From assembly GCF_003790525.1 (NCBI RefSeq), contig NZ_CP033635.1: a DNA stretch of 64,000 nt. One strand, 5' to 3'. Each line of letters starts with the position of its first letter. Within the stretch, counting starts at the first letter, position 1. The position numbers were made by a program, and so were the translations under genes. The stretch comes from Escherichia coli. Lineage in GTDB: Bacteria; Pseudomonadota; Gammaproteobacteria; Enterobacterales; Enterobacteriaceae. Shown in pieces: positions 10,811 to 20,961 of this stretch. Below the pieces are notes generated by a model that saw only the letters and a program-made list of their open reading frames with translations, had not been told where the DNA came from and made no database searches.

Positions 10811-10868
10811 CTTTTTTTGCCGCAGGCGCTGGTTCGCAGACTACTAAAATAATACGCGGTTTTTCATT

Positions 10869-12101
10869 TTACGGACGGGCAGCCAGAAGACACAGTTGAA
10901 ATGCCACATTATACGATTCCTCAAAGGATTTTAGAGGTAGAAACTCAAATATGGAGTGAAAATTATGTGCGCCAGTAAAAAAATTAGGCGTCAAAATTCC
11001 TCTGGCTGACAGAACTGCACCATCAGTTCCACCACGCATTGGTATCGGTTTTGGTGTAATTCCCAGCATATTCATGGACTCAAAGAGTAGATCTACAGCA
11101 CGTCTGTCTTTGTTTAAAGCATTACTAATATTGCTGTAGATATCAGTGATCGTGAACTCAACCCTGGCTGTCGGATATCGGGAAGATATTTTATGTGCAA
11201 CAGCAGCAATCTGTTGTTTTCTGCGAGTAAAACTGGATTGATCAAAATCACGTATACTTGCCTGTAACACAGCATTACTTTGTCCGGCATTCATACCATT
11301 GAACCAGATATAACCTTCACGACCAGCGGTATTCTCCGGTGTTTCAAGGCGATCAAATTCATTTATGTAATCACAGGCCATCAGTAATGGATTAACTAAT
11401 ACATTTTTTGCAGACATCGGATGTGCCGTTACACCAGTAAAACGGATCTCTGCAGATGCAGCGTTAAAGTTTTCATAAACAATCTCTCCTGACTCGCAAC
11501 AGTCAATTGTCCAGGCAAAGTCAACAGAAAAACGTTGTAAATCAAGAGACTTAGCTCCACGCAAGCCTGTTTCCTCATCAGGGACAAATGCAACCACAAT
11601 ATCACCATGCTGATGTTCTGAGGTCAGATTCTCCAGCATAGTCATCACTACCGAAACAGCGGCTTTATTATCAGCCCCTAGTACACTTGTTCCGTCGCTG
11701 AAAATAATGTCTTCCCCCCGATATTTCAGAATTTCGGGATGCTCTTTGACCCGCAGCCAGATATCTTTTTCTGCATTGAGACACAAATCTTCACCTGTAA
11801 ATTTCAAAATTTGTGGATGAATATCCGGAGATAAACCAACATCTACTGTATCAATATGAGTAATGAAACCAATTCGAGGCGCACCCGGAATATTACCTTT
11901 TTTCACCGCGGTGACCGTTGCATGCTCATCAACAATAATATCGTCCATATCCAGCAACGCCAGTTCATCTGCAAGTGTCCGGGCCATCTCATACTGTCCT
12001 TGTGTGGACGGAAGGGATGCTGAATTTGGGTCACTCTGGCTACTGATTGAAAGGTAGCGAAAGAAACGTTGGATTAATTGACTGCTTAATGGGGAGTACA
12101 T
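10869..12101 (-). CDS. peptidase T-like tripeptidase (M20B family)
   Basis: PepT-like motifs (LGADNKAAV, DEETGLRGAK, NFNAASAEI, RGGTDGA); start taken at MYSPLSS with AAGGAA SD. Confidence 0.75.
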   Translation of the reverse strand: MYSPLSSQLIQRFFRYLSISSQSDPNSASLPSTQGQYEMARTLADELALLDMDDIIVDEHATVTAVKKGNIPGAPRIGFITHIDTVDVGLSPDIHPQILKFTGEDLCLNAEKDIWLRVKEHPEILKYRGEDIIFSDGTSVLGADNKAAVSVVMTMLENLTSEHQHGDIVVAFVPDEETGLRGAKSLDLQRFSVDFAWTIDCCESGEIVYENFNAASAEIRFTGVTAHPMSAKNVLVNPLLMACDYINEFDRLETPENTAGREGYIWFNGMNAGQSNAVLQASIRDFDQSSFTRRKQQIAAVAHKISSRYPTARVEFTITDIYSNISNALNKDRRAVDLLFESMNMLGITPKPIPMRGGTDGAVLSARGILTPNFFTGAHNFHSIFEFLPLKSFEESYNVAFQLCLLAARP

Positions 12102-12219
12102 AACTTTTCCTTCTTTTTTTGTGTTATGAGGTGAATGCAATACGCATTTAATGTTATTTATTAATCTGTAAACGATGCGGATTCATCACTCCATATTGTC
12201 AAAGAAAACAGGAAAAGTC

Positions 12220-13812
12220 ATGGTAAGAAGATTAGCGACTATTGCACCGTTACTGGTTGCGTTGGGTGTAAGCTCAACTGTTTATGCAAAGACACTGGTT
12301 TACTGCTCTGAAGGCTCACCTGAGAGTTTTAATCCTCAGCTTTATACTTCGGGGACCAGTGTTGATGCAAGTGCTGTTCCGGTGTATAACCGACTGGTTG
12401 ATTTTAAGGTGGGCACTACTGTGCTGGTTCCCAGCCTGGCTGAACGATGGGAAATCAGTGGTGACGGGAAAGCATATACTTTTTATCTGCGTAAAGGCGT
12501 TAAATTTCACAGTAATAAATACTTTACTCCAACGCGAGAGTTTAATGCTGATGATGTTATTTTTTCATTTATGCGCCAGAAGGATCCTGGTCATCCATAT
12601 CACCAAGTTTCTGGTGGGACGTATTCTAATTTTGAAAGTCTGGAATTCAGTTCACTCATAACCAGTATCGACAGAGTTGATGATCATACAGTTCGCTTTA
12701 ATCTTTCACATCCGGAGGCTCCCTTTATTGCTGATTTAGCCTGGTATTTTGCTTCTGTTTTATCCGCTGAATATGCTGATGCTATGCTTAAAGCCGGAAC
12801 ACCTGAACGGGTTGATATGAATCCAATTGGGACAGGGCCATATCAACTCAAACAATATCAGAAAGATTCGCGTATTTTATTTACGGCTTTTGATGATTAC
12901 TGGGAGGGGAAAGCAAAACTGGAACGCATTGTTTTCAGTATCACACCAGATTCCTCAGTGCGTCTGGCTAAACTGGAGAAAAATGAGTGTCAGGTGATGC
13001 CGTTTCCTAATCCATCAGATCTTTCCAGAATCAAAAAAAATCCGGCTCTTAAATTGATGAGTAAAGCCGGACTTAATACAGGTTTTCTTGCTTTCAATAC
13101 GCAAAAAGCTCCTCTGGATAATGTAAAAGTTCGTCAGGCACTGGCAACAGCAATTAATAAAAATGCCATTATAGATGCTGTATTTCAGGGGACTGGTAGT
13201 GCTGCTAAAAATCTGCTGCCACCAGGAGTATGGAGTGCAGACAGTGAATTGAAAGATTATGAATATGATCCAGAAAAAGCCAGATCATTGCTAAAAGAAG
13301 CTGGTTTTGATAATGGAATGACTATTGATCTTTGGGCGATGCCAGTTCAACGCCCTTATAACCCAAACGCTAAACGAATGGCCGAAATGATTCAGGCTGA
13401 CTGGGCAAAAGTGGGAGTAAAAACAAACATTATCACTTTTGAATGGGGGGAATATCTTAATCGTATAAAGAACGGAGAGCATCAGGCTGCGTTGATGGGA
13501 TGGACAACCGCAACAGGTGATCCTGATAATTTTTTTGGTCCACTCTTTACCTGCACTTCTGCTAACGGTGGTTCTAATTCCGCGAAGTGGTGCTACAAAC
13601 CTTTCGATGAAATTATTTCTCAGGCTAAAGTAATAACTGATCAGGAAAAACGAGCAGTGCTCTATAAAAAAGCACAACAGATGATGCATGAACAAATACC
13701 AGCGGTGATGATTGCACATTCCACCATTTTTGAACCAATACGCAATGAAGTCACAGGTTATGAAATAGATCCATTTGGTAAACATATTTTTTATCAGGTT
13801 GATATAAAATAA
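12220..13812 (+). CDS. DppA-like periplasmic dipeptide (and possibly heme)-binding ABC substrate-binding protein, orphan
   Basis: About 530 aa after signal peptide; long collinear similarity to E. coli DppA (KTLVYCSEGSPE.FNPQL..., WAMPVQRPYNPNA.RMAEMIQADWAKVGV); no permease or ATPase genes follow. Confidence 0.8.
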   Translation: MVRRLATIAPLLVALGVSSTVYAKTLVYCSEGSPESFNPQLYTSGTSVDASAVPVYNRLVDFKVGTTVLVPSLAERWEISGDGKAYTFYLRKGVKFHSNKYFTPTREFNADDVIFSFMRQKDPGHPYHQVSGGTYSNFESLEFSSLITSIDRVDDHTVRFNLSHPEAPFIADLAWYFASVLSAEYADAMLKAGTPERVDMNPIGTGPYQLKQYQKDSRILFTAFDDYWEGKAKLERIVFSITPDSSVRLAKLEKNECQVMPFPNPSDLSRIKKNPALKLMSKAGLNTGFLAFNTQKAPLDNVKVRQALATAINKNAIIDAVFQGTGSAAKNLLPPGVWSADSELKDYEYDPEKARSLLKEAGFDNGMTIDLWAMPVQRPYNPNAKRMAEMIQADWAKVGVKTNIITFEWGEYLNRIKNGEHQAALMGWTTATGDPDNFFGPLFTCTSANGGSNSAKWCYKPFDEIISQAKVITDQEKRAVLYKKAQQMMHEQIPAVMIAHSTIFEPIRNEVTGYEIDPFGKHIFYQVDIK

Positions 13813-14910
13813 CAGGTGTAAGCTCCGTCTGTGACGTCTGGTGATAGTTGTCCAGTCTGGTAACAATAGCGTCCATCTATACAGATGGACGCGAATGATG
13901 AATTTTCAGACAACAAGATATTGATGGTTTTCGTTTTTATCTGCCCGACGCATTACGTCTAATATTCGAAGAACAATTATCTGTCTAGTTAATCGCTCAT
14001 CAGTCAGGGCTAAGTCATTTCACCATCACGATTTTTTTAACTATTACCCGAATGAGCAAAGTGAGGATGATGCCATGACGCAGGTCAGAGCGACCAGCAC
14101 CGCGACAATTAATAAAACAGGAAGGCTGCGCGTTTCAGACAGTGATGTCAACATAAACTATCAGTAACGTTAACTGCATCAGAAGCACAAGTATGGATTT
14201 TACCATTGTGCAGAACGACTTGCCCATGGGAAATAATAAATTTAATAAAAAAAGAAAGATATGGTTGCAAATATTATAATATCCCGGGCAACGATCCTGA
14301 TTTTCTCAATACATGTTTTCCTCACGTATTTGTTCTTCAAAGAGCAATCAGCATCTGTTACTGAATGGTTGTTATGAGCATTAAAAGAATAACGGGAAGT
14401 CGGTGACGTGGGGATATGTCGCGTGTTGAATTATACAAAGGGCCGACATCTTCATGGTGTCGGCCAGTCATAAGTGCCAGATATTAACCGTCAGTTACAG
14501 GGGGTAACCGCAGGAAACAGGCTACGCTCCGGGTAACGGGTTATCAATAGTTATTTATTTACTTAAATTCAGTGATTTTGTTCTGTATCATTGCGCTTTC
14601 TTACTGGTATAAATAATGATCGATTGATTTTCGCATGAGCATCAGAATTTGTCGTAATTTGAGGTCCAGGTGCTGTACATACAGGAATATGGTTCTGTCA
14701 GCGGTAGATTGCCGTTGCTGAGCAGAATGTTCAGGCTGGATGGTGAGATTACAGCTGATATTGCTGTGCTGATGGCAGAATGGTAAACGTTAAGTGCGCG
14801 TTCCCGGCAATGAAGGCAAACACGTCATGACAGCAACGCAAAATAAACCAGGAACGCGCGGTATTTTTTATCCCGAATGAAAGCGATTGTCCATATCCGG
14901 TAATAAATAT

Positions 14911-15162
14911 TCAGCAGTATGTAAAGTGCGGTTTGCCCGGTTCTGGTGGAAGGGGCTCCAGATACACATCATCAACAAACACACACGGGAATTTATCCAC
15001 CGGGCAGCCTGCACGGTCAGCCATATCCTGCAGCGTCACACTGTGCTTCGCGACATCAATAAACACAACATCCGGTTCCATTTCATCGGGGATTCGGGTT
15101 GCGTGATGCATAATGCGATGGACTGAAGGGCAGTGACGGTAACCAAAAACACGTATACGCAT
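14911..15162 (-). CDS. small hypothetical protein (83 aa), possibly thioredoxin/glutaredoxin-fold
   Basis: Strong AGGAGG SD 7 nt upstream of ATG; fold assignment speculative (MRIRVFGYRHCP...). Confidence 0.4.
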   Translation of the reverse strand: MRIRVFGYRHCPSVHRIMHHATRIPDEMEPDVVFIDVAKHSVTLQDMADRAGCPVDKFPCVFVDDVYLEPLPPEPGKPHFTYC

Positions 15163-15485
15163 GATGTACCTCCTGGTTGCAGGGTGACTGTATCATCAGA
15201 CCTTATCATGCGTTTAAAAAATGTACTGTAACTCACATTTTTTGGTAAGACGGTGGCTATTACTGCAAATGATGATGGCTCAGTTTTTATTTTTTATTCA
15301 ATATTTTCATGTTGTTATTGTTATTTTGTTTGTTCATACCCTGTGTGGTTCCCCGTTCTTTACATTCAGGCACTTCCGTTTCCTTTAACGTTTTCGTTAC
15401 TCTCTGAAGCTTGTGGTATCTGTGATTACTGATGCCTGCCGTCATACTGCGAAATACCGGATATCAGACCGTGGAGGATTCTGCC

Positions 15486-16058
15486 ATGCAACGCTGGTTT
15501 CTGCCTTTTCTTGCGTCTCTGTTGCTGTTACAGGGTTGTGTTGCCGCTGCGCTGGTCGGTACGGCTGCTGTGGGTACTAAAGTGTCAGTGGATCCCCGAA
15601 GTGCGGGAACGCAGATTGATGATGAAATTCTGGAAGCAAGGGTCAGCCGTGCGCTGTCGAAGGACTCACAACTCAGGGGTGATGCGCGAATTATCGTCAC
15701 AGCATACCAGGGCACTGTACTGCTGACAGGGCAGGTACCAGACCGTAGTGCAGGTGAAAGAGCCCGTCAGATTGCAGATGGTGTTGAGGGGACTGTGCAG
15801 GTATGGAATGAAATAAGGACGGGAAAACCACTCCGTGCTGATAAAACAACCACTGATGCCTGGCTGACCACAAAAATCCGGGCACAGTTACTGAAGAGCA
15901 GCCGGGTGAAACTGTCAGATGTAAAGGTACTGACGGAGAATGGTGAAGTCTTTCTTATGGGGAGAGTTACAGAGAAGGAAGGACAGGCTGCTGCAGATAT
16001 CGCCAGTCGCGTGGCGGGGGTGAAACACGTCATCACCGCATTCAGTTATATACGATGA
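15486..16058 (+). CDS. BON-domain lipoprotein, paralogue of DolP (YraP)
   Basis: Lipobox LLLLQGC, two BON-like segments, strong resemblance to YraP (LQGCVAAA.VGTAAVGTK...DPRS.GTQ.DD); GGAGGA SD before the internal ATG at 15486. Confidence 0.75.
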   Translation: MQRWFLPFLASLLLLQGCVAAALVGTAAVGTKVSVDPRSAGTQIDDEILEARVSRALSKDSQLRGDARIIVTAYQGTVLLTGQVPDRSAGERARQIADGVEGTVQVWNEIRTGKPLRADKTTTDAWLTTKIRAQLLKSSRVKLSDVKVLTENGEVFLMGRVTEKEGQAAADIASRVAGVKHVITAFSYIR

Positions 16059-16105
16059 GTATGGAGAGCCCGTTCGTTCGGGCTCTGTATTTATCTTCCC
16101 CCCGT

Positions 16106-16459
16106 TCATCCCTGGCGTTGCCAGGTGGCACTTCCGTTCTTACAGTCAACGCGCACACGATACTGAATATCTGCTTTCTTTCCACGGGCAGTGAGATGCA
16201 CAGTGATGACATTATCACCTTTATTTACCGGCTCACGAAGATTCACCCAGACAACGGGACGCTGCTGACCGAGAATTTCCTGGTCATCTTTCCACTGAAA
16301 CACCTGTTTCTGGAGATAGTCCCGTTTGACGCTGGCTGCAACAGTCGATGCTTCCTGTCCTTCACATCGTGGAAAACTGACGGTTCTGTTTTTTTCAGCG
16401 GCCAGTGATGATGCACAGATACCGAAGATGAGCAGAATGGAAGAGAGTGCTTTGTTCAT
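16106..16459 (-). CDS. secreted hypothetical protein (117 aa, signal peptide)
   Basis: N-terminal signal peptide MNKALSSILLIFGICASSLAA; GGAGGA SD upstream. Confidence 0.45.
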   Translation of the reverse strand: MNKALSSILLIFGICASSLAAEKNRTVSFPRCEGQEASTVAASVKRDYLQKQVFQWKDDQEILGQQRPVVWVNLREPVNKGDNVITVHLTARGKKADIQYRVRVDCKNGSATWQRQG

Positions 16460-16773
16460 TTACAGGTCCTCCACAGGGGATAGTTTCATTGAGGAGTTAC
16501 ATCTTAACAACATAAAACAGCATTTCCTGTAACAATCCTCACATAACTTCTTATCCCGTCACTTCCCGTTTCACATGGGCAGCATAGCCTGTTTTTTAAC
16601 CCGTTTTTCAGTCATTTCCATAAACAAATCTTCGCTGACGATAAATCTTTTTTCTGTTTAACGATCGATTTTGTCGATCGATATGATATGTATAATTCAT
16701 TTTACCAATGAGAAATCCATCTTAAAATTGGACAAATTCATATGTCTGAAGGAAACATCAGGAGAGGTGGATT

Positions 16774-17523
16774 GTGAAAAAGTTACTGGCACTCACTGCG
16801 GTAGCTGCGCTTACCGGCACGTTTTCAACGCTGGCGCTGGCAGATGCGGATAAAACCGGGTTCTATATCACGGGTAAGGCTGGTGCATCTGTTATCACTC
16901 AGGATAATCAGCGTTTTAGTCAGGACTTTGGTGATGTTGTTTATAAGTATAAAGGCGGTGACAAGAGCGATACGGTTTTTGGCGCCGGCCTTGCGGTGGG
17001 ATATGACTTTTATCAGCACTACAATGTACCTGTTCGCACGGAAGTTGAATTCTATGGTCGCGGCTCTGCGAATTCCCGCTATACACTGGATACATGGGAG
17101 TCCCCGTCTGGAGATAATGGTTGGAAGGAAGACACACAAAACAGGCTCAGCGTGAATACCCTGATGGTGAGCACGTATTATGATTTCAGAAACAGCAGTG
17201 CTTTCACTCCGTGGGTATCAGCCGGACTGGGTTATGCGCGGGTACATCATAAGGCAACATACACCGATACCACCTGGCATAAATCAGGTGAAGTAAGTGA
17301 TGCTTCTTCATTACATTACTCGGGATATGATAACAATTTCGCATGGAGCCTTGGTGTTGGCGTGAAATATGATGTCACCCCGGATTTCAGTCTTGACCTT
17401 GCTTATCGCTATCTTGATGCAGGTGATTCAACCCTGACGTATAAAGACGGGCAGGATACATATAAATCCTCTGTTGATGTCAGAAGTAACGAATTTACGT
17501 TAGGCGCTACATACAGCTTCTGA
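16774..17523 (+). CDS. outer-membrane beta-barrel protein (249 aa)
   Basis: Signal peptide ending ALA-DA, alternating aromatic/hydrophilic strands, C-terminal ...TYSF; GTG start with GGAGAGG SD. Confidence 0.6.
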   Translation: MKKLLALTAVAALTGTFSTLALADADKTGFYITGKAGASVITQDNQRFSQDFGDVVYKYKGGDKSDTVFGAGLAVGYDFYQHYNVPVRTEVEFYGRGSANSRYTLDTWESPSGDNGWKEDTQNRLSVNTLMVSTYYDFRNSSAFTPWVSAGLGYARVHHKATYTDTTWHKSGEVSDASSLHYSGYDNNFAWSLGVGVKYDVTPDFSLDLAYRYLDAGDSTLTYKDGQDTYKSSVDVRSNEFTLGATYSF

Positions 17524-19516: not shown

Positions 19517-20710
19517 TTATTTCGTTTTTACGTTTTTCTCCATAAGTGAATCAATGTAATCAGCGTACCACTGCATCATTTCACGACGTCCATCCAGATA
19601 TTGCGCATGGTTATAAGTGCCACGCATGACGTTTTTATCAACATGAGCAAGCTGGAGTTCAATCCAGGCTGAGCTGAAATCATGGTCATGGAGAATGGTG
19701 CTGAAGGTATGACGAAATCCGTGGGCTGTTGTCAGGGCATGCCAGCCTGACTGCTCAAGGAATTCATTGATACACTTGCGGTTTCGCGGGAGATCTTTTC
19801 TGAATGCACCAGGAATAATAAAGGCGGAATTACGCGATTCAGTGCGTGTTTTTATCTCCTCCAGTAACGCCAGTACCTGGCGTGAAAGCGGCACAACGTG
19901 CGGTCGTCGCATTTTCATTCTTTCTTTCGGAATAACCCACAGGGCCTCCGTGAAATTAATTTCGTCCCAGGTTGCCAGTCGCAGTTCTCCGGTGCGAACA
20001 GCAGTCAGAACCAGCATCTGCGTTGCCAGCGACATCAGATTTTCGGATGCCGTTATCTGATGCATGAAAGCTCCCATCTGTTCTTCAGAAAGCGTCCTGC
20101 GCTGTTGTTTTTCAGGAGGAAGCAGTACCCCGCTGAGTGTCGATGCCGGATTAACGGTAGCACGTCCTGTTGCTATGGCATAATCAAAAACCTGCGCACA
20201 GAGCTGGCGTGTTTTACGCAGTGCTTCAAGTTTTCCCTGTTCTTCTATAGTCCTCAGAACGTTCAGTATTTCCATGGGGCGGATCCCGGTCACAGGACGG
20301 TTTCCAAGAGCAGGGAAAACATGATTTTCAAGTCTTGCACGCTGATCTGCCTGGTAACCTGTTGTCCATCGACGTGCCATATGGGTAAGCAGCTCCTCTG
20401 CAATGGTGCGAAATGTGCAGGCCATACTTTCCCTGATGGCAAGTTTTCGCGCCTGTTTTTCATACGACGGATCTTTACCTTCAGCCAGAAGTTTCCGTGC
20501 TTCATCCCGCTTCTGACGAGCCTGAGCCAGTGATATGTCAGGATAGACACCAATCACCAGTTTCTTTTCCTTACCGGCAAAGCGGTACTTCAGATTCCAG
20601 TAACGGGCACCGGATTTTTTGACAAGAAGATAAAGGCCCTGACCGTCAGAAAGTTTGTAATCCCTGTCAGCAGGTTTAGCCGACTCAATTTGTCGAACAG
20701 TAAGTGGCAT
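19517..20710 (-). CDS. tyrosine recombinase, P4-type phage/island integrase (397 aa)
   Basis: Full-length ORF with typical P4-family N-terminus (MPLTVRQIESAKPADRDYKLSDGQGLYLLV) and catalytic C-terminal region (HGFRHTFST...). Confidence 0.9.
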   Translation of the reverse strand: MPLTVRQIESAKPADRDYKLSDGQGLYLLVKKSGARYWNLKYRFAGKEKKLVIGVYPDISLAQARQKRDEARKLLAEGKDPSYEKQARKLAIRESMACTFRTIAEELLTHMARRWTTGYQADQRARLENHVFPALGNRPVTGIRPMEILNVLRTIEEQGKLEALRKTRQLCAQVFDYAIATGRATVNPASTLSGVLLPPEKQQRRTLSEEQMGAFMHQITASENLMSLATQMLVLTAVRTGELRLATWDEINFTEALWVIPKERMKMRRPHVVPLSRQVLALLEEIKTRTESRNSAFIIPGAFRKDLPRNRKCINEFLEQSGWHALTTAHGFRHTFSTILHDHDFSSAWIELQLAHVDKNVMRGTYNHAQYLDGRREMMQWYADYIDSLMEKNVKTK

Positions 20711-20924
20711 GATGTTACCCCTGCAATGTAGCCCCCATAATAGCCCCCAAAATCATCTTGATGTTCATGGAATATGATTTACCCCCAGAGAGAAGGAATT
20801 TCTTATGATACCTTATTTCAAAGGGGGTTAAAGGGGGAGGGGTTATCTCTGTTGAAATCAGTTGATATCAATAGATCCTCCCCAGAGGGGCGAGGGGACC
20901 GTTCGAACTCGTATTTGACTTTGT

Positions 20925-20953
20925 CAACAATAATAAAGGGAGCTTTCGCTCCC
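20925..20953 (-). terminator. rho-independent terminator of lptG
   Basis: GGGAGCGAAAGCTCCC hairpin followed on the minus strand by TTTATTATT. Confidence 0.6.
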
Positions 20954-20961
20954 TTGTTAGA

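What the first reader, a model, noticed from the sequence alone, without database searches (positions are those of the whole stretch)
10869..13812. Divergent pair of PepT-like peptidase and orphan DppA paralogue next to the heme receptor
The 530-aa binding protein is collinear with, and by my recollection highly similar to, E. coli DppA, but no dppBCDF-like genes follow; about 1.1 kb of non-coding DNA does. DppA and MppA are known to deliver heme as well as dipeptides to the DppBCDF permease. An extra DppA copy beside a heme receptor suggests a heme or peptide-scavenging module that borrows the core Dpp permease, with the PepT-like tripeptidase processing imported peptides. The functional linkage is inference.
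Basis: partly seen in the sequence, partly recalled or inferred. Interest (0 to 1): 0.5.

Follow-up and report, generated by a model that had tools for sequence, protein, structure and literature searches.

The report
Orphan DppA-like binding protein with PepT-like peptidase
This is a real two-gene unit, a periplasmic DppA-like binding protein plus a cytoplasmic PepT-like peptidase, that is conserved across many enterobacteria, reached this E. coli between insertion-sequence remnants, has lost the residue DppA uses to hold dipeptides, and sits next to the heme receptor only by accident.

Summary
A 410-aa M20B peptidase gene (10869-12101, minus) and a 530-aa DppA paralogue gene (12220-13812, plus) face away from each other across 118 bp. 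No permease genes follow.

The binding protein is 64% identical to E. coli DppA without gaps. Its Gly-Asp-Asn pocket motif is Thr-Ala-Thr. The lost Asp408 is the residue that salt-bridges the dipeptide N-terminus. This change is present in all 80 species representatives examined.

The same divergent pair occurs in 75 of those 80 Enterobacterales genomes, 72 of them within 300 bp. None has DppB/C-like genes or a heme-receptor homologue within 7 kb. In Enterobacteriaceae the pair lies between tehB and ydcL, a site that is empty in E. coli K-12.

In this window the pair is a low-GC cassette (41-42%) bounded by IS66 remnants. An IS2 fragment separates it from the heme receptor. Other E. coli carry different genes at that junction.

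Best reading: an orphan binding protein feeds a non-standard peptide-like ligand to a permease encoded elsewhere, probably DppBCDF, and the PepT paralogue cleaves it. The ligand and the permease are inferred. The heme link is not supported.

The parts
10869..12101 (-). PepT-like M20B metallopeptidase gene (410 aa, cytoplasmic, no signal peptide)
   Evidence: NCBIfam NF009920 gives 667 bits, NF003976 467 bits and TIGR01882 322 bits, all above their cut-offs. It is 36% identical to K-12 PepT. The residues aligned with PepT H78, D140, E173/E174, D196 and H379 are conserved as H82, D144, E176/E177, D200 and H382. Those PepT residue roles are from my memory of the 1FNO structure paper. PDB hits to PepT 3ife, 1fno and 1vix score about 260 bits.
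12102..12219 (.). 118-bp divergent intergenic region shared by both genes, with the conserved core TTTAATGTTATTTAT(T/G)A at 12147-12163
   Evidence: Intergenic regions of 75 loci were aligned. The core is nearly invariant in 59 distinct sequences. An AGGA Shine-Dalgarno sequence lies before the ATG at 12220. No Fur, FNR, CRP or sigma-54 enrichment was found. An ArcA-like direct repeat reaches at least 13 of 16 matches in 19 of 75 regions against 16 of 1500 shuffles, but the window copy reaches only 11 of 16.
12220..13812 (+). Orphan DppA-paralogue periplasmic substrate-binding protein gene (530 aa; the signal peptide is predicted to be cut after VYA, before KTLVYC)
   Evidence: It is 64% identical to K-12 DppA without gaps. 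NCBIfam DppA_dipep gives 883 bits, below the curated cut-off of 1005. Pfam PF00496 is precomputed for its homologues. About 120 close homologues at 76-84% identity form a distinct clade across Enterobacterales.
13507..13515 (+). Codons for Thr430-Ala431-Thr432, which replace the Gly-Asp-Asn pocket motif of DppA (G407-D408-N409 in mature numbering, D436 in precursor numbering)
   Evidence: Alignments are. Ala replaces Asp in 80 of 80 species representatives. The role of this Asp in binding the dipeptide N-terminus is described in PMC3295651, PMC12136057, PMC8519434 and PMC12728205. Arg355 (window 13351-13353) and Tyr357 are kept in 80 of 80.
13816..14026 (.). IS66-family end remnant immediately after the binding-protein stop codon; right-hand boundary of the cassette
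   Evidence: It shows 81% identity over about 210 bp to the tnpA-proximal ends of IS66-like elements on many E. coli plasmids.
10414..10781 (-). IS66 transposase C-terminal remnant just after the peptidase stop codon; in the window an IS2 fragment runs into its left part up to about 10605. Left-hand boundary of the cassette
   Evidence: GF60 annotates an incomplete, frameshifted transposase here. Pfam DDE_Tnp_IS66 and DDE_Tnp_IS66_C hit the 100-aa ORF at the same place in L098. Homology between the window and GF60 starts at 10606.
9734..10605 (-). Truncated IS2 (IS3 family) that joins the pair cassette to the heme-receptor segment; a junction, not part of the module
   Evidence: NF006918 (IS2 TnpB) covers residues 53-301 at 572 bits and residues 9-41. 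It is absent at this place in GF60.

Best explanation
The two genes form a self-contained module that is widespread in Enterobacterales. A Sec-exported, DppA-derived binding protein captures a peptide-like compound in the periplasm. It hands the compound to an ABC permease encoded elsewhere, most probably the housekeeping DppBCDF. The divergently transcribed cytoplasmic PepT paralogue, a di-zinc M20B aminopeptidase, then hydrolyses the imported compound.

The ligand is probably not an ordinary dipeptide. The pocket keeps the Arg and Tyr that hold the C-terminal carboxylate. It has lost the Asp that holds the free N-terminal ammonium, so Gly-Asp-Asn has become Thr-Ala-Thr. A second acidic residue is also lost (D153Y). 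Aromatic residues are swapped around the cleft (Y114N, M152W, Y317A, L496F).

My best guess is a tripeptide or an N-terminally unusual peptide, because the partner enzyme belongs to the tripeptidase family.

In this E. coli the module is a horizontally acquired, low-GC cassette bracketed by IS66 remnants inside a mosaic island. Its position beside the heme receptor comes from IS-mediated shuffling.

- **Shown:** gene identities, the motif change, the conservation of the pairing, the absence of linked permease genes, and the mosaic junctions.
- **Inferred:** the permease partner, the ligand class, and the hydrolysis step.
For: **Conserved pairing**
- Of 80 species-representative genomes, 72 have the PepT-like gene divergent and within 300 bp, and 3 more have it within 1.2 kb.
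- One of the five exceptions is a truncated locus (L024). In Raoultella ornithinolytica L067 a prophage has split the pair, and an intact pair exists in the same species. L064 (Raoultella sp.) was not examined.
- Percent identities of the two proteins co-vary across loci (r = 0.85).
- The pair sits in unrelated surroundings in different families: tehB-ydcL in Enterobacteriaceae, hisP-yfcH in Rahnella, and other sites in Serratia.

**No permease of its own**
- No DppB/C homologue lies within 7 kb in any locus.
- No flanking protein is shared between the window and other species.

**Pocket change**
- D408A, G407T, Y114N and D153Y occur in 80 of 80, M152W and L496F in 79 of 80, and R355 and Y357 are kept in 80 of 80.
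- True DppA orthologues from Escherichia, Klebsiella, Yersinia, Proteus, Azospirillum and Burkholderia all keep GDN.
- Published work shows Asp436/Arg383 bind the dipeptide termini and that the R383D+D436R protein binds no dipeptide (PMC12136057). GDN is conserved in E. coli DppA and in P. aeruginosa DppA1-5 (PMC12728205).

**Peptidase competence**
- All metal ligands and the catalytic Glu are conserved, and family cut-offs are passed.

**Permease availability and precedent**
- dppBCDF is present in 5421 of 5426 complete E. coli genomes.
- GbpA (54% identical to DppA) and MppA (29%) use Dpp translocators (PMC3295651, PMC12136057).

**Acquisition**
- GC content is 41-42%, against 54% for the core genes of the window and 47-59% for homologues in other species.
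- IS66 remnants lie on both sides.
- The pair is present in 1 of 5426 complete E. coli genomes.
Against: - No experiment or structure is available for this clade. I found no paper on it in four targeted searches.
- Loss of D436 also removes one of the two salt bridges that DppA makes with the DppB scoop loop. However, the DppB E41A+R42A mutant still transports (PMC12136057).
- PepT-family enzymes, as far as I recall, need a free N-terminus on a tripeptide. That fits poorly with a pocket lacking the ammonium-binding Asp, unless the amine is held elsewhere.
- I could not map the clade-specific substitutions onto coordinates. Their placement in the cleft rests on a numbering-offset comparison with the cavity loops of NTHi SapA (PMC8519434, Table 2).
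- In some E. coli the module is damaged: IS1 sits in the intergenic region in L101, and the binding protein is frameshifted in L105. It may therefore be dispensable in this host.
Confidence: 0.55

Rival explanations
1. One reading: the extra DppA copy is a periplasmic heme carrier serving the adjacent TonB-dependent heme receptor. It delivers heme to DppBCDF, and the peptidase is an accessory.
For: The receptor is a genuine heme/hemoglobin-type TonB receptor, and it recurs next to the pair in 3 of 9 E. coli contexts. E. coli DppA binds hemin at about 10 uM, and DppA or MppA support heme uptake through Dpp (as cited in PMC3295651 and PMC12136057). A related solo binding protein in Serratia proteamaculans abuts a TonB siderophore receptor and fes cluster.
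Against: - IS2 and IS66 remnants separate the receptor from the pair.
- The junction carries other genes in 6 of 9 E. coli contexts.
- The receptor cluster is common in E. coli without the pair.
- No receptor homologue lies within 7 kb in any of the 80 other species.
- The conserved partner is a peptidase, not a heme-handling protein.
- There is no Fur-box signal in the intergenic region.
- DppA-family proteins once annotated as heme-binding turned out not to be heme carriers (PMC3295651).
Confidence: 0.06
2. The binding protein does not use DppBCDF. It docks on another family-5 permease (Opp, Sap, Gsi, Ddp or Yej), or it acts without transport as a chemoreceptor or sensor ligand or as a periplasmic chaperone.
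For: No permease is linked in any genome, so the partner is open. Loss of D436 removes a contact with the DppB scoop loop (PMC12136057). SBPs of this family are known to signal (title of PMC8050422, seen, not read). P. aeruginosa DppA5 binds none of 281 peptides and may not belong to Dpp (PMC12728205).
Against: The protein is far closer to DppA (64%) than to SapA, GsiB, NikA or OppA (NCBIfam scores 883 against 481, 204, 215 and 111 bits). Arg383, which pairs with DppB Glu41, is invariant. The strict pairing with a cytoplasmic peptidase implies that the ligand reaches the cytoplasm.
Confidence: 0.15
3. It is simply a redundant second DppA and second PepT for ordinary di- and tripeptide nutrition.
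For: Similarity to DppA is high, the PepT family cut-offs are passed, and databases annotate the genes generically.
Against: The DppA equivalog cut-off is missed (883 against 1005). GDN is TAT, and six further cleft-region residues are fixed differently in the whole clade while staying conserved in true DppA orthologues. Genomes with the pair also keep a canonical dppA. One example is Klebsiella oxytoca, where dppA is and the PepT-like protein is P0207.
Confidence: 0.08
4. In this E. coli the cassette is a passenger with no role: it was carried in by IS66 activity and is decaying.
For: It is IS-bounded and very rare in E. coli (1 of 5426 complete genomes). Disrupted copies exist (IS1 in L101, frameshift in L105). 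The upstream half of the ArcA-like repeat is degenerate in the window copy.
Against: Both ORFs and the Shine-Dalgarno sequence are intact in the window. The E. coli protein is nearly invariant across several hundred assemblies (P0121 is listed in 580 blocks; variants are 99-100% identical). This reading concerns fitness in one host and does not contradict the mechanism.
Confidence: 0.15

Closest known systems
E. coli DppA with DppBCDF (dipeptide permease; PDB 1DPP, 8Z1Y)
   Same: Family-5 (cluster C) fold. 64% identity without gaps. The four cysteines, Arg355/Tyr357 and the Sec signal peptide are the same.
   Different: It is not in a dpp operon. It scores below the NCBIfam DppA cut-off. The Gly-Asp-Asn motif is Thr-Ala-Thr, and Y114N, M152W, D153Y, Y317A and L496F are fixed in the clade.
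GbpA (formerly HbpA) of Pasteurellaceae, a DppA paralogue that primes glutathione import through DppBCDF (PMC3295651; PDB 3M8U)
   Same: A DppA-derived paralogue encoded apart from the permease it uses, with a few pocket mutations that switch ligand preference. It was once wrongly linked to heme.
   Different: GbpA keeps the N-terminus-binding Asp (Asp432), is often a lipoprotein, and is restricted to Pasteurellaceae. It scores 587 bits to the query against about 820 for DppA. No fixed peptidase partner is described.
HbpA2 of Pasteurellaceae (PDB 3TPA; PMC3295651)
   Same: A DppA-like protein in which Asp408 is replaced. It binds neither dipeptides, glutathione nor heme, and its ligand is unknown.
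   Different: The replacement there is Arg, not Ala. It is a different clade (540 bits) with no PepT partner reported.
MppA of E. coli (orphan murein-tripeptide binding protein using OppBCDF, and DppBCDF for heme; PMC3173086, PMC12136057)
   Same: A stand-alone family-5 binding protein that borrows a permease encoded elsewhere.
   Different: MppA is an OppA relative (29% identical to DppA). By the title of PMC3173086 it accommodates its ligand in a conventional peptide-binding protein.
P. aeruginosa DppA1-5 sharing one DppBCDF, with the metallopeptidase MdpA in the operon (PMC12728205)
   Same: Several DppA paralogues widen the substrate range of one permease, and a peptidase gene is co-located. 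Some paralogues prefer tripeptides.
   Different: All five keep Gly-Asp-Asn, and four are encoded within the dpp locus. MdpA belongs to another peptidase family as far as I know; this was not tested.
PepT (tripeptide aminopeptidase, M20B) of Salmonella and E. coli (PDB 1FNO, 1VIX)
   Same: It passes the TIGR01882 equivalog cut-off, and all metal ligands and the catalytic Glu are conserved.
   Different: It is only 36% identical and falls in the separate NF009920 (PRK13381) subfamily. The loop after the Asp196 ligand differs (DGGGVGE in PepT, DCCESGE here). It is encoded next to a binding protein instead of next to potABCD.

Membership tests
DppA (dipeptide-binding protein, NCBIfam NF043070 equivalog) | Whole-protein score at or above the curated cut-off of 1005 bits | tested here: not met
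   882.9 bits. GF60 annotates the protein only as 'ABC transporter substrate-binding protein'.
DppA (dipeptide-binding protein) | Family-5 SBP domain (PF00496), collinear with DppA | tested here: met
   PF00496 is precomputed for homologues. The alignment to K-12 DppA is 64% identical without gaps.
DppA (dipeptide-binding protein) | Asp408 (precursor Asp436) in a Gly-Asp-Asn motif that binds the ligand alpha-ammonium | tested here: not met
   The motif is Thr-Ala-Thr in the query. Ala is found in 80 of 80 clade members. The role of the Asp is described in PMC3295651, PMC12136057 and PMC12728205.
DppA (dipeptide-binding protein) | Arg355 (precursor Arg383) that binds the ligand carboxylate | tested here: met
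   Conserved in the query and in 80 of 80 clade members.
DppA (dipeptide-binding protein) | Encoded as the first gene of a dppABCDF operon | tested here: not met
   No DppB-F homologue lies near it in the window or in 80 other genomes. The K-12 operon served as a control.
DppA (dipeptide-binding protein) | Binds dipeptides and delivers them to DppBCDF | not testable with these tools
   Needs purified protein and transport assays.
Peptidase T (M20B tripeptide aminopeptidase) | Scores above the curated cut-offs of the PepT models | tested here: met
   TIGR01882 gives 322.1 bits (cut-off 285.75). NF003976 gives 467 (cut-off 255). NF009920 gives 667 (cut-off 293).
Peptidase T (M20B tripeptide aminopeptidase) | Di-zinc ligands His78, Asp140, Glu174, Asp196 and His379 plus catalytic Glu173 (residue roles from memory of the 1FNO paper) | tested here: met
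   All are aligned and identical: H82, D144, E176/E177, D200 and H382. The same motifs are visible against 3ife.
Peptidase T (M20B tripeptide aminopeptidase) | Hydrolyses tripeptides with free termini only | not testable with these tools
   Enzymology is required.
Orphan family-5 binding proteins that share a permease (MppA, GbpA, P. aeruginosa DppA paralogues) | Binding-protein gene without adjacent permease genes, while a related permease is present in the genome | tested here: inconclusive
   Absence of linked permease genes is shown. dppBCDF is near-universal in E. coli, but the genome of the window itself and the 80 other genomes were not checked as whole genomes.
Orphan family-5 binding proteins that share a permease | Demonstrated dependence of uptake on the borrowed permease | not testable with these tools
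   A genetic test is needed.
Heme-uptake locus (TonB receptor with its periplasmic carrier and permease) | Receptor and carrier genes conserved together and co-regulated by iron | tested here: not met
   The two are separated by IS remnants. The linkage is variable within E. coli and absent from 80 other species. There is no Fur-box enrichment.

The most novel reading that the evidence does not exclude
The Thr-Ala-Thr clade is a previously unrecognised specificity class of DppA-type binding proteins in Enterobacterales. It imports, through DppBCDF, a ligand that lacks a conventional free alpha-amino terminus or is bound in a shifted register. Examples would be an N-modified, beta- or gamma-linked, or otherwise unusual peptide. 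A dedicated PepT paralogue would be its cognate hydrolase. Together they would be a new peptide-salvage pathway present in Enterobacter, Klebsiella, Raoultella, Serratia, Pantoea, Erwinia and Dickeya, and mobile into E. coli.
Probability: 0.3. Interest if true: 0.55.

Novelty: new variant of a known kind. Interest (0 to 1): 0.35.

Why it matters
Peptide permeases are nutrient gateways and Trojan-horse entry routes for antibiotics, and their range is set by their binding proteins. A DppA paralogue that is widely conserved, fixed to its own peptidase and missing the canonical amine-binding Asp would extend the known substrate range of Dpp-type uptake. The genera involved include clinically and agriculturally important Enterobacterales. 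The clade is directly testable with one purified protein and a peptide library. For this window, the practical point is that the apparent heme-scavenging module comes from island mosaicism.

Tried and rejected
- **Permease remnants.** I looked for dppB-F pseudogene remnants and any conserved flanking protein around the pair. tblastn with all ORFs of 50 aa or more from the other loci against window 9401-15500 found nothing beyond the two genes.
- **RNA families.** An Rfam scan of 10400-15500 gave only chance-level hits.
- **Regulator sites.** Fur, FNR, CRP and sigma-54 consensus scans of 75 intergenic regions were no better than shuffles. The TTGAT-GTT-ATCAA sequence in one species has 3-bp spacing, not the 4 bp of an FNR box, so I rejected it.
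- **GcvB sRNA.** Pairing to the 5' UTRs had z-scores of only -1 to -3 in some Enterobacteriaceae. It was absent in Pantoea, Rahnella and Dickeya, and was -0.6 (binding-protein UTR) and -1.2 (peptidase UTR) in the window. The dppA control gave -2.9. Not claimed.
- **A possible cognate permease in Rahnella.** The ABC genes next to the peptidase gene there are the ordinary hisJQMP operon.
- **Plasmids.** The plasmid search found no copy of the pair, only dppA and sapA relatives.
- **Literature.** Searches for a described function found nothing on this clade. One search, for 'pepT2'/'dppA2', returned only eukaryotic genes. The Letoffe 2006 heme/Dpp paper is not held.
- **Sigma-70 promoters.** The scan gave no site in the intergenic region.
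- **Structure prediction.** I did not run it, because the tool returns no coordinates. It could not place the substituted residues in the pocket.


Full report
**What is in the sequence**

The window is E. coli. Its lptG-lptF-pepA-holC-valS stretch is 100% identical to strain SMS-3-5 and others. Bases 1 to about 20,700 are a mosaic island full of IS fragments.

Two long ORFs face away from each other at the reported coordinates.

- The minus-strand ORF is best started at the ATG at 12101, giving 410 aa and coordinates 10869-12101.
- The plus-strand ORF is best started at 12220, giving 530 aa and coordinates 12220-13812. An AGGA Shine-Dalgarno sequence precedes that ATG, and NCBI annotates the same starts in the one complete E. 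coli genome that carries the genes.
- The intergenic region is 118 bp.

**The two proteins**

The peptidase passes all three NCBIfam peptidase T models and scores best on the NF009920 (PRK13381) subfamily. It is 36% identical to K-12 PepT. The residues aligned with PepT His78, Asp140, Glu173/Glu174, Asp196 and His379 are all conserved. The roles of those PepT residues are from my memory of the 1FNO structure paper. It has no signal peptide.

The binding protein is 64% identical and 82% similar to K-12 DppA over 519 residues without a single gap. Its best solved relatives are DppA of Yersinia pestis and E. coli, ahead of GbpA, HbpA2 and SapA. It has a Sec signal peptide ending VYA before KTLVYC, as in DppA. 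It nevertheless misses the curated DppA cut-off (883 against 1005 bits).

**The pocket is changed**

In E. coli DppA, Arg355 and Asp408 (precursor Arg383 and Asp436) form the two salt bridges to the carboxylate and the ammonium of the dipeptide. The double charge-reversal mutant binds no dipeptide (PMC12136057). The Asp is described as a family signature in PMC3295651 and PMC8519434. A Gly-Asp-Asn motif is conserved in E. coli DppA and all five P. aeruginosa DppA paralogues (PMC12728205).

- In the query this motif is Thr-Ala-Thr (GWTTATGDPDNFF against GWTGDNGDPDNFF).
- Among 120 close database homologues, 119 have Ala. Among 80 species-representative genomes, 80 do.
- Arg355 and Tyr357 are kept in all.
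- I compared the clade with DppA orthologues from Escherichia, Klebsiella, Yersinia and Proteus, with Azospirillum and Burkholderia as outgroups. The residues fixed differently are Y114N, M152W, D153Y, Y317A, G407T, D408A and L496F, among 37 such positions in the mature protein.
- By a numbering-offset comparison with the cavity loops listed for NTHi SapA (PMC8519434, Table 2), residues 114, 152/153, 405-410 and 496 fall in cleft-lining loops. This mapping is an inference, because I had no coordinates.
- Two acidic residues are lost and aromatic residues are rearranged.
- Among 124 more distant family representatives, 65% keep the Asp. Its loss is therefore normal for family-5 proteins with other ligands but exceptional this close to DppA.

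**The pairing is conserved and no permease is linked**

A scan of one genome per species returned 80 loci, all Enterobacterales. They include Enterobacter, Kosakonia, Lelliottia, Leclercia, Klebsiella, Raoultella, Buttiauxella, Cedecea, Phytobacter, Siccibacter, Serratia, Rahnella, Erwinia, Pantoea, Dickeya and others.

- The PepT-like gene lies divergently upstream within 300 bp in 72 loci and within 1.2 kb in 3 more.
- Five loci lack it. One is cut at a contig edge. In the Raoultella ornithinolytica type strain (L067) a prophage has split the pair, and another strain of that species has it intact. A second Raoultella locus (L064) was not examined. Edaphovirga (L051) and Serratia oryzae (L086) lack the peptidase gene.
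- Identities of the two proteins fall in parallel across the loci (r = 0.85).
- No DppB/C-like gene lies within 7 kb in any locus.
- Nothing but the two genes is shared between the window and the other species.
- In Enterobacteriaceae the pair sits between tehB and ydcL/ydcO. In K-12 that interval is empty. In Rahnella the pair lies between hisP and yfcH, and in Serratia fonticola it is elsewhere.

The conserved unit is therefore exactly these two genes and their shared intergenic region.

**How it came to lie here**

- The pair is in 1 of 5426 complete E. coli genomes (GF60), although the exact peptidase sequence is recorded in several hundred assemblies.
- Its GC content is 41-42%, against 54% for the core of the window and 47-59% for the homologues. 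The nearest relatives are only 82-84% identical. The donor is therefore unsampled.
- An IS66 transposase remnant follows the peptidase gene. An IS66 end remnant follows the binding-protein gene at 13816-14026.
- Homology with GF60 begins at 10606. To the left of that point the window has a truncated IS2 and then the heme receptor.
- In nine E. coli contexts the binding-protein side is constant: an 83-aa GrxA-like fragment, a dolP paralogue, a yebF-like gene and an outer-membrane beta-barrel.
- The peptidase side varies. It carries IS66 plus PTS and sitA genes in four contexts, the IS3-family fragment plus the TonB receptor and DUF4198 in three, and a serine-protease autotransporter in two.
- The receptor cluster is found in many E. 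coli without the pair.
- No homologue of the receptor occurs in the 80 other loci.

The receptor adjacency is thus a product of island shuffling.

**Mechanism**

The anatomy is a periplasmic binder, a cytoplasmic hydrolase and no transporter, conserved for the whole order. It implies uptake through a permease encoded elsewhere, followed by hydrolysis. DppBCDF is the obvious candidate for three reasons.

- The protein is much closer to DppA than to any other family-5 binder.
- Arg383, which pairs with Glu41 of the DppB scoop loop, is invariant. The lost Asp436-Arg42 contact is dispensable for transport (PMC12136057).
- More distant binders such as GbpA and MppA already use Dpp translocators (PMC3295651, PMC12136057). 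dppBCDF is near-universal in E. coli.

The ligand is unlikely to be a standard dipeptide. The partner enzyme belongs to the tripeptidase family, so I favour a tripeptide or an N-terminally unusual peptide, with low confidence. Similar peptidase-plus-binder pairings are known from my own knowledge (ddpX with ddpA, iaaA with gsiABCD) and from P. aeruginosa MdpA in the dpp locus (PMC12728205).

**Regulation (weak)**

The intergenic region has a nearly invariant core, TTTAATGTTATTTAT(G/T)A. Fur, FNR, CRP and sigma-54 consensus matches do not exceed shuffles. An ArcA-like direct repeat (consensus from memory) reaches at least 13 of 16 matches in 19 of 75 regions against 16 of 1500 shuffles, but the window copy has only one good half. 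GcvB pairing is unconvincing.

**Verdict**

An orphan DppA paralogue with a functionally linked PepT-like peptidase, plausibly borrowing Dpp, stands. The heme link and the assumption of ordinary dipeptide binding do not.

The module is annotated only generically, and I found no study of it. It is best filed as a new variant within the known kind 'orphan binding-protein paralogues that share a peptide permease'. Interest is moderate.

Noticed in passing
window 12147-12163 (and the intergenic regions of L008-L087): A nearly invariant 17-bp core, TTTAATGTTATTTAT(G/T)A, lies in the divergent intergenic region across genera. It partly resembles an ArcA-P direct repeat: 19 of 75 regions reach at least 13 of 16 matches, against 16 of 1500 shuffles. 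No regulator could be assigned.
   Followed up: partly
L095 5935-7530 (Serratia proteamaculans) and L086 7001-8590 (Serratia oryzae): A sister subclade of solo DppA-like binding proteins (GWTTANG, N114, Y153, but M152 kept) has no PepT partner. In S. proteamaculans it abuts a TonB-dependent siderophore receptor, fes and entF.
   Followed up: partly
L051 6941-11128 (Edaphovirga cremea): A clade member lacks the PepT-like gene. It is followed on the opposite strand by an MFS metabolite/H+ symporter and an M20D amidohydrolase (TIGR01891).
   Followed up: partly
window 19517-20961: A tyrosine integrase (397 aa; partial match to the NF007246 integrase-domain model, below its cut-off) lies directly downstream of lptG. 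The yjgR-idn-ahr-tRNA-Leu block present at this place in SMS-3-5 is missing, and no tRNA gene is found anywhere in the window. The same-length integrase lies next to other genes in other E. coli (L099, L106).
   Followed up: no
window 14911-17523: A constant island backbone lies beside the binding-protein gene in all nine E. coli contexts. It comprises an 83-aa GrxA-like fragment, a dolP (BON-domain lipoprotein) paralogue at 15432-16058, a yebF-like gene and an Adr/OmpW-like outer-membrane beta-barrel at 16774-17523. In some strains leoA-type dynamin-like GTPase genes follow.
   Followed up: partly
L108 5157-5457 (E. coli K-12 tehB-ydcL intergenic region), compared with L002, L006 and L090: The ancestral chromosomal site of the pair in Enterobacteriaceae, between tehB and ydcL, is a bare 301-bp spacer in K-12. 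E. coli therefore lacks the pair at its native site, and this lineage regained a diverged copy elsewhere.
   Followed up: partly
L101 9184-9880 and L105 8288-9882: In other E. coli carriers the module is damaged. IS1 is inserted in the intergenic region in L101, and the binding-protein gene is broken into three ORFs in L105.
   Followed up: no
window 6707-9487: The heme-type TonB receptor is followed by a DUF4198 protein (263 aa). This two-gene unit recurs in many E. coli flanked by IS66 elements, without classical chu/shu-type transport genes beside it.
   Followed up: no
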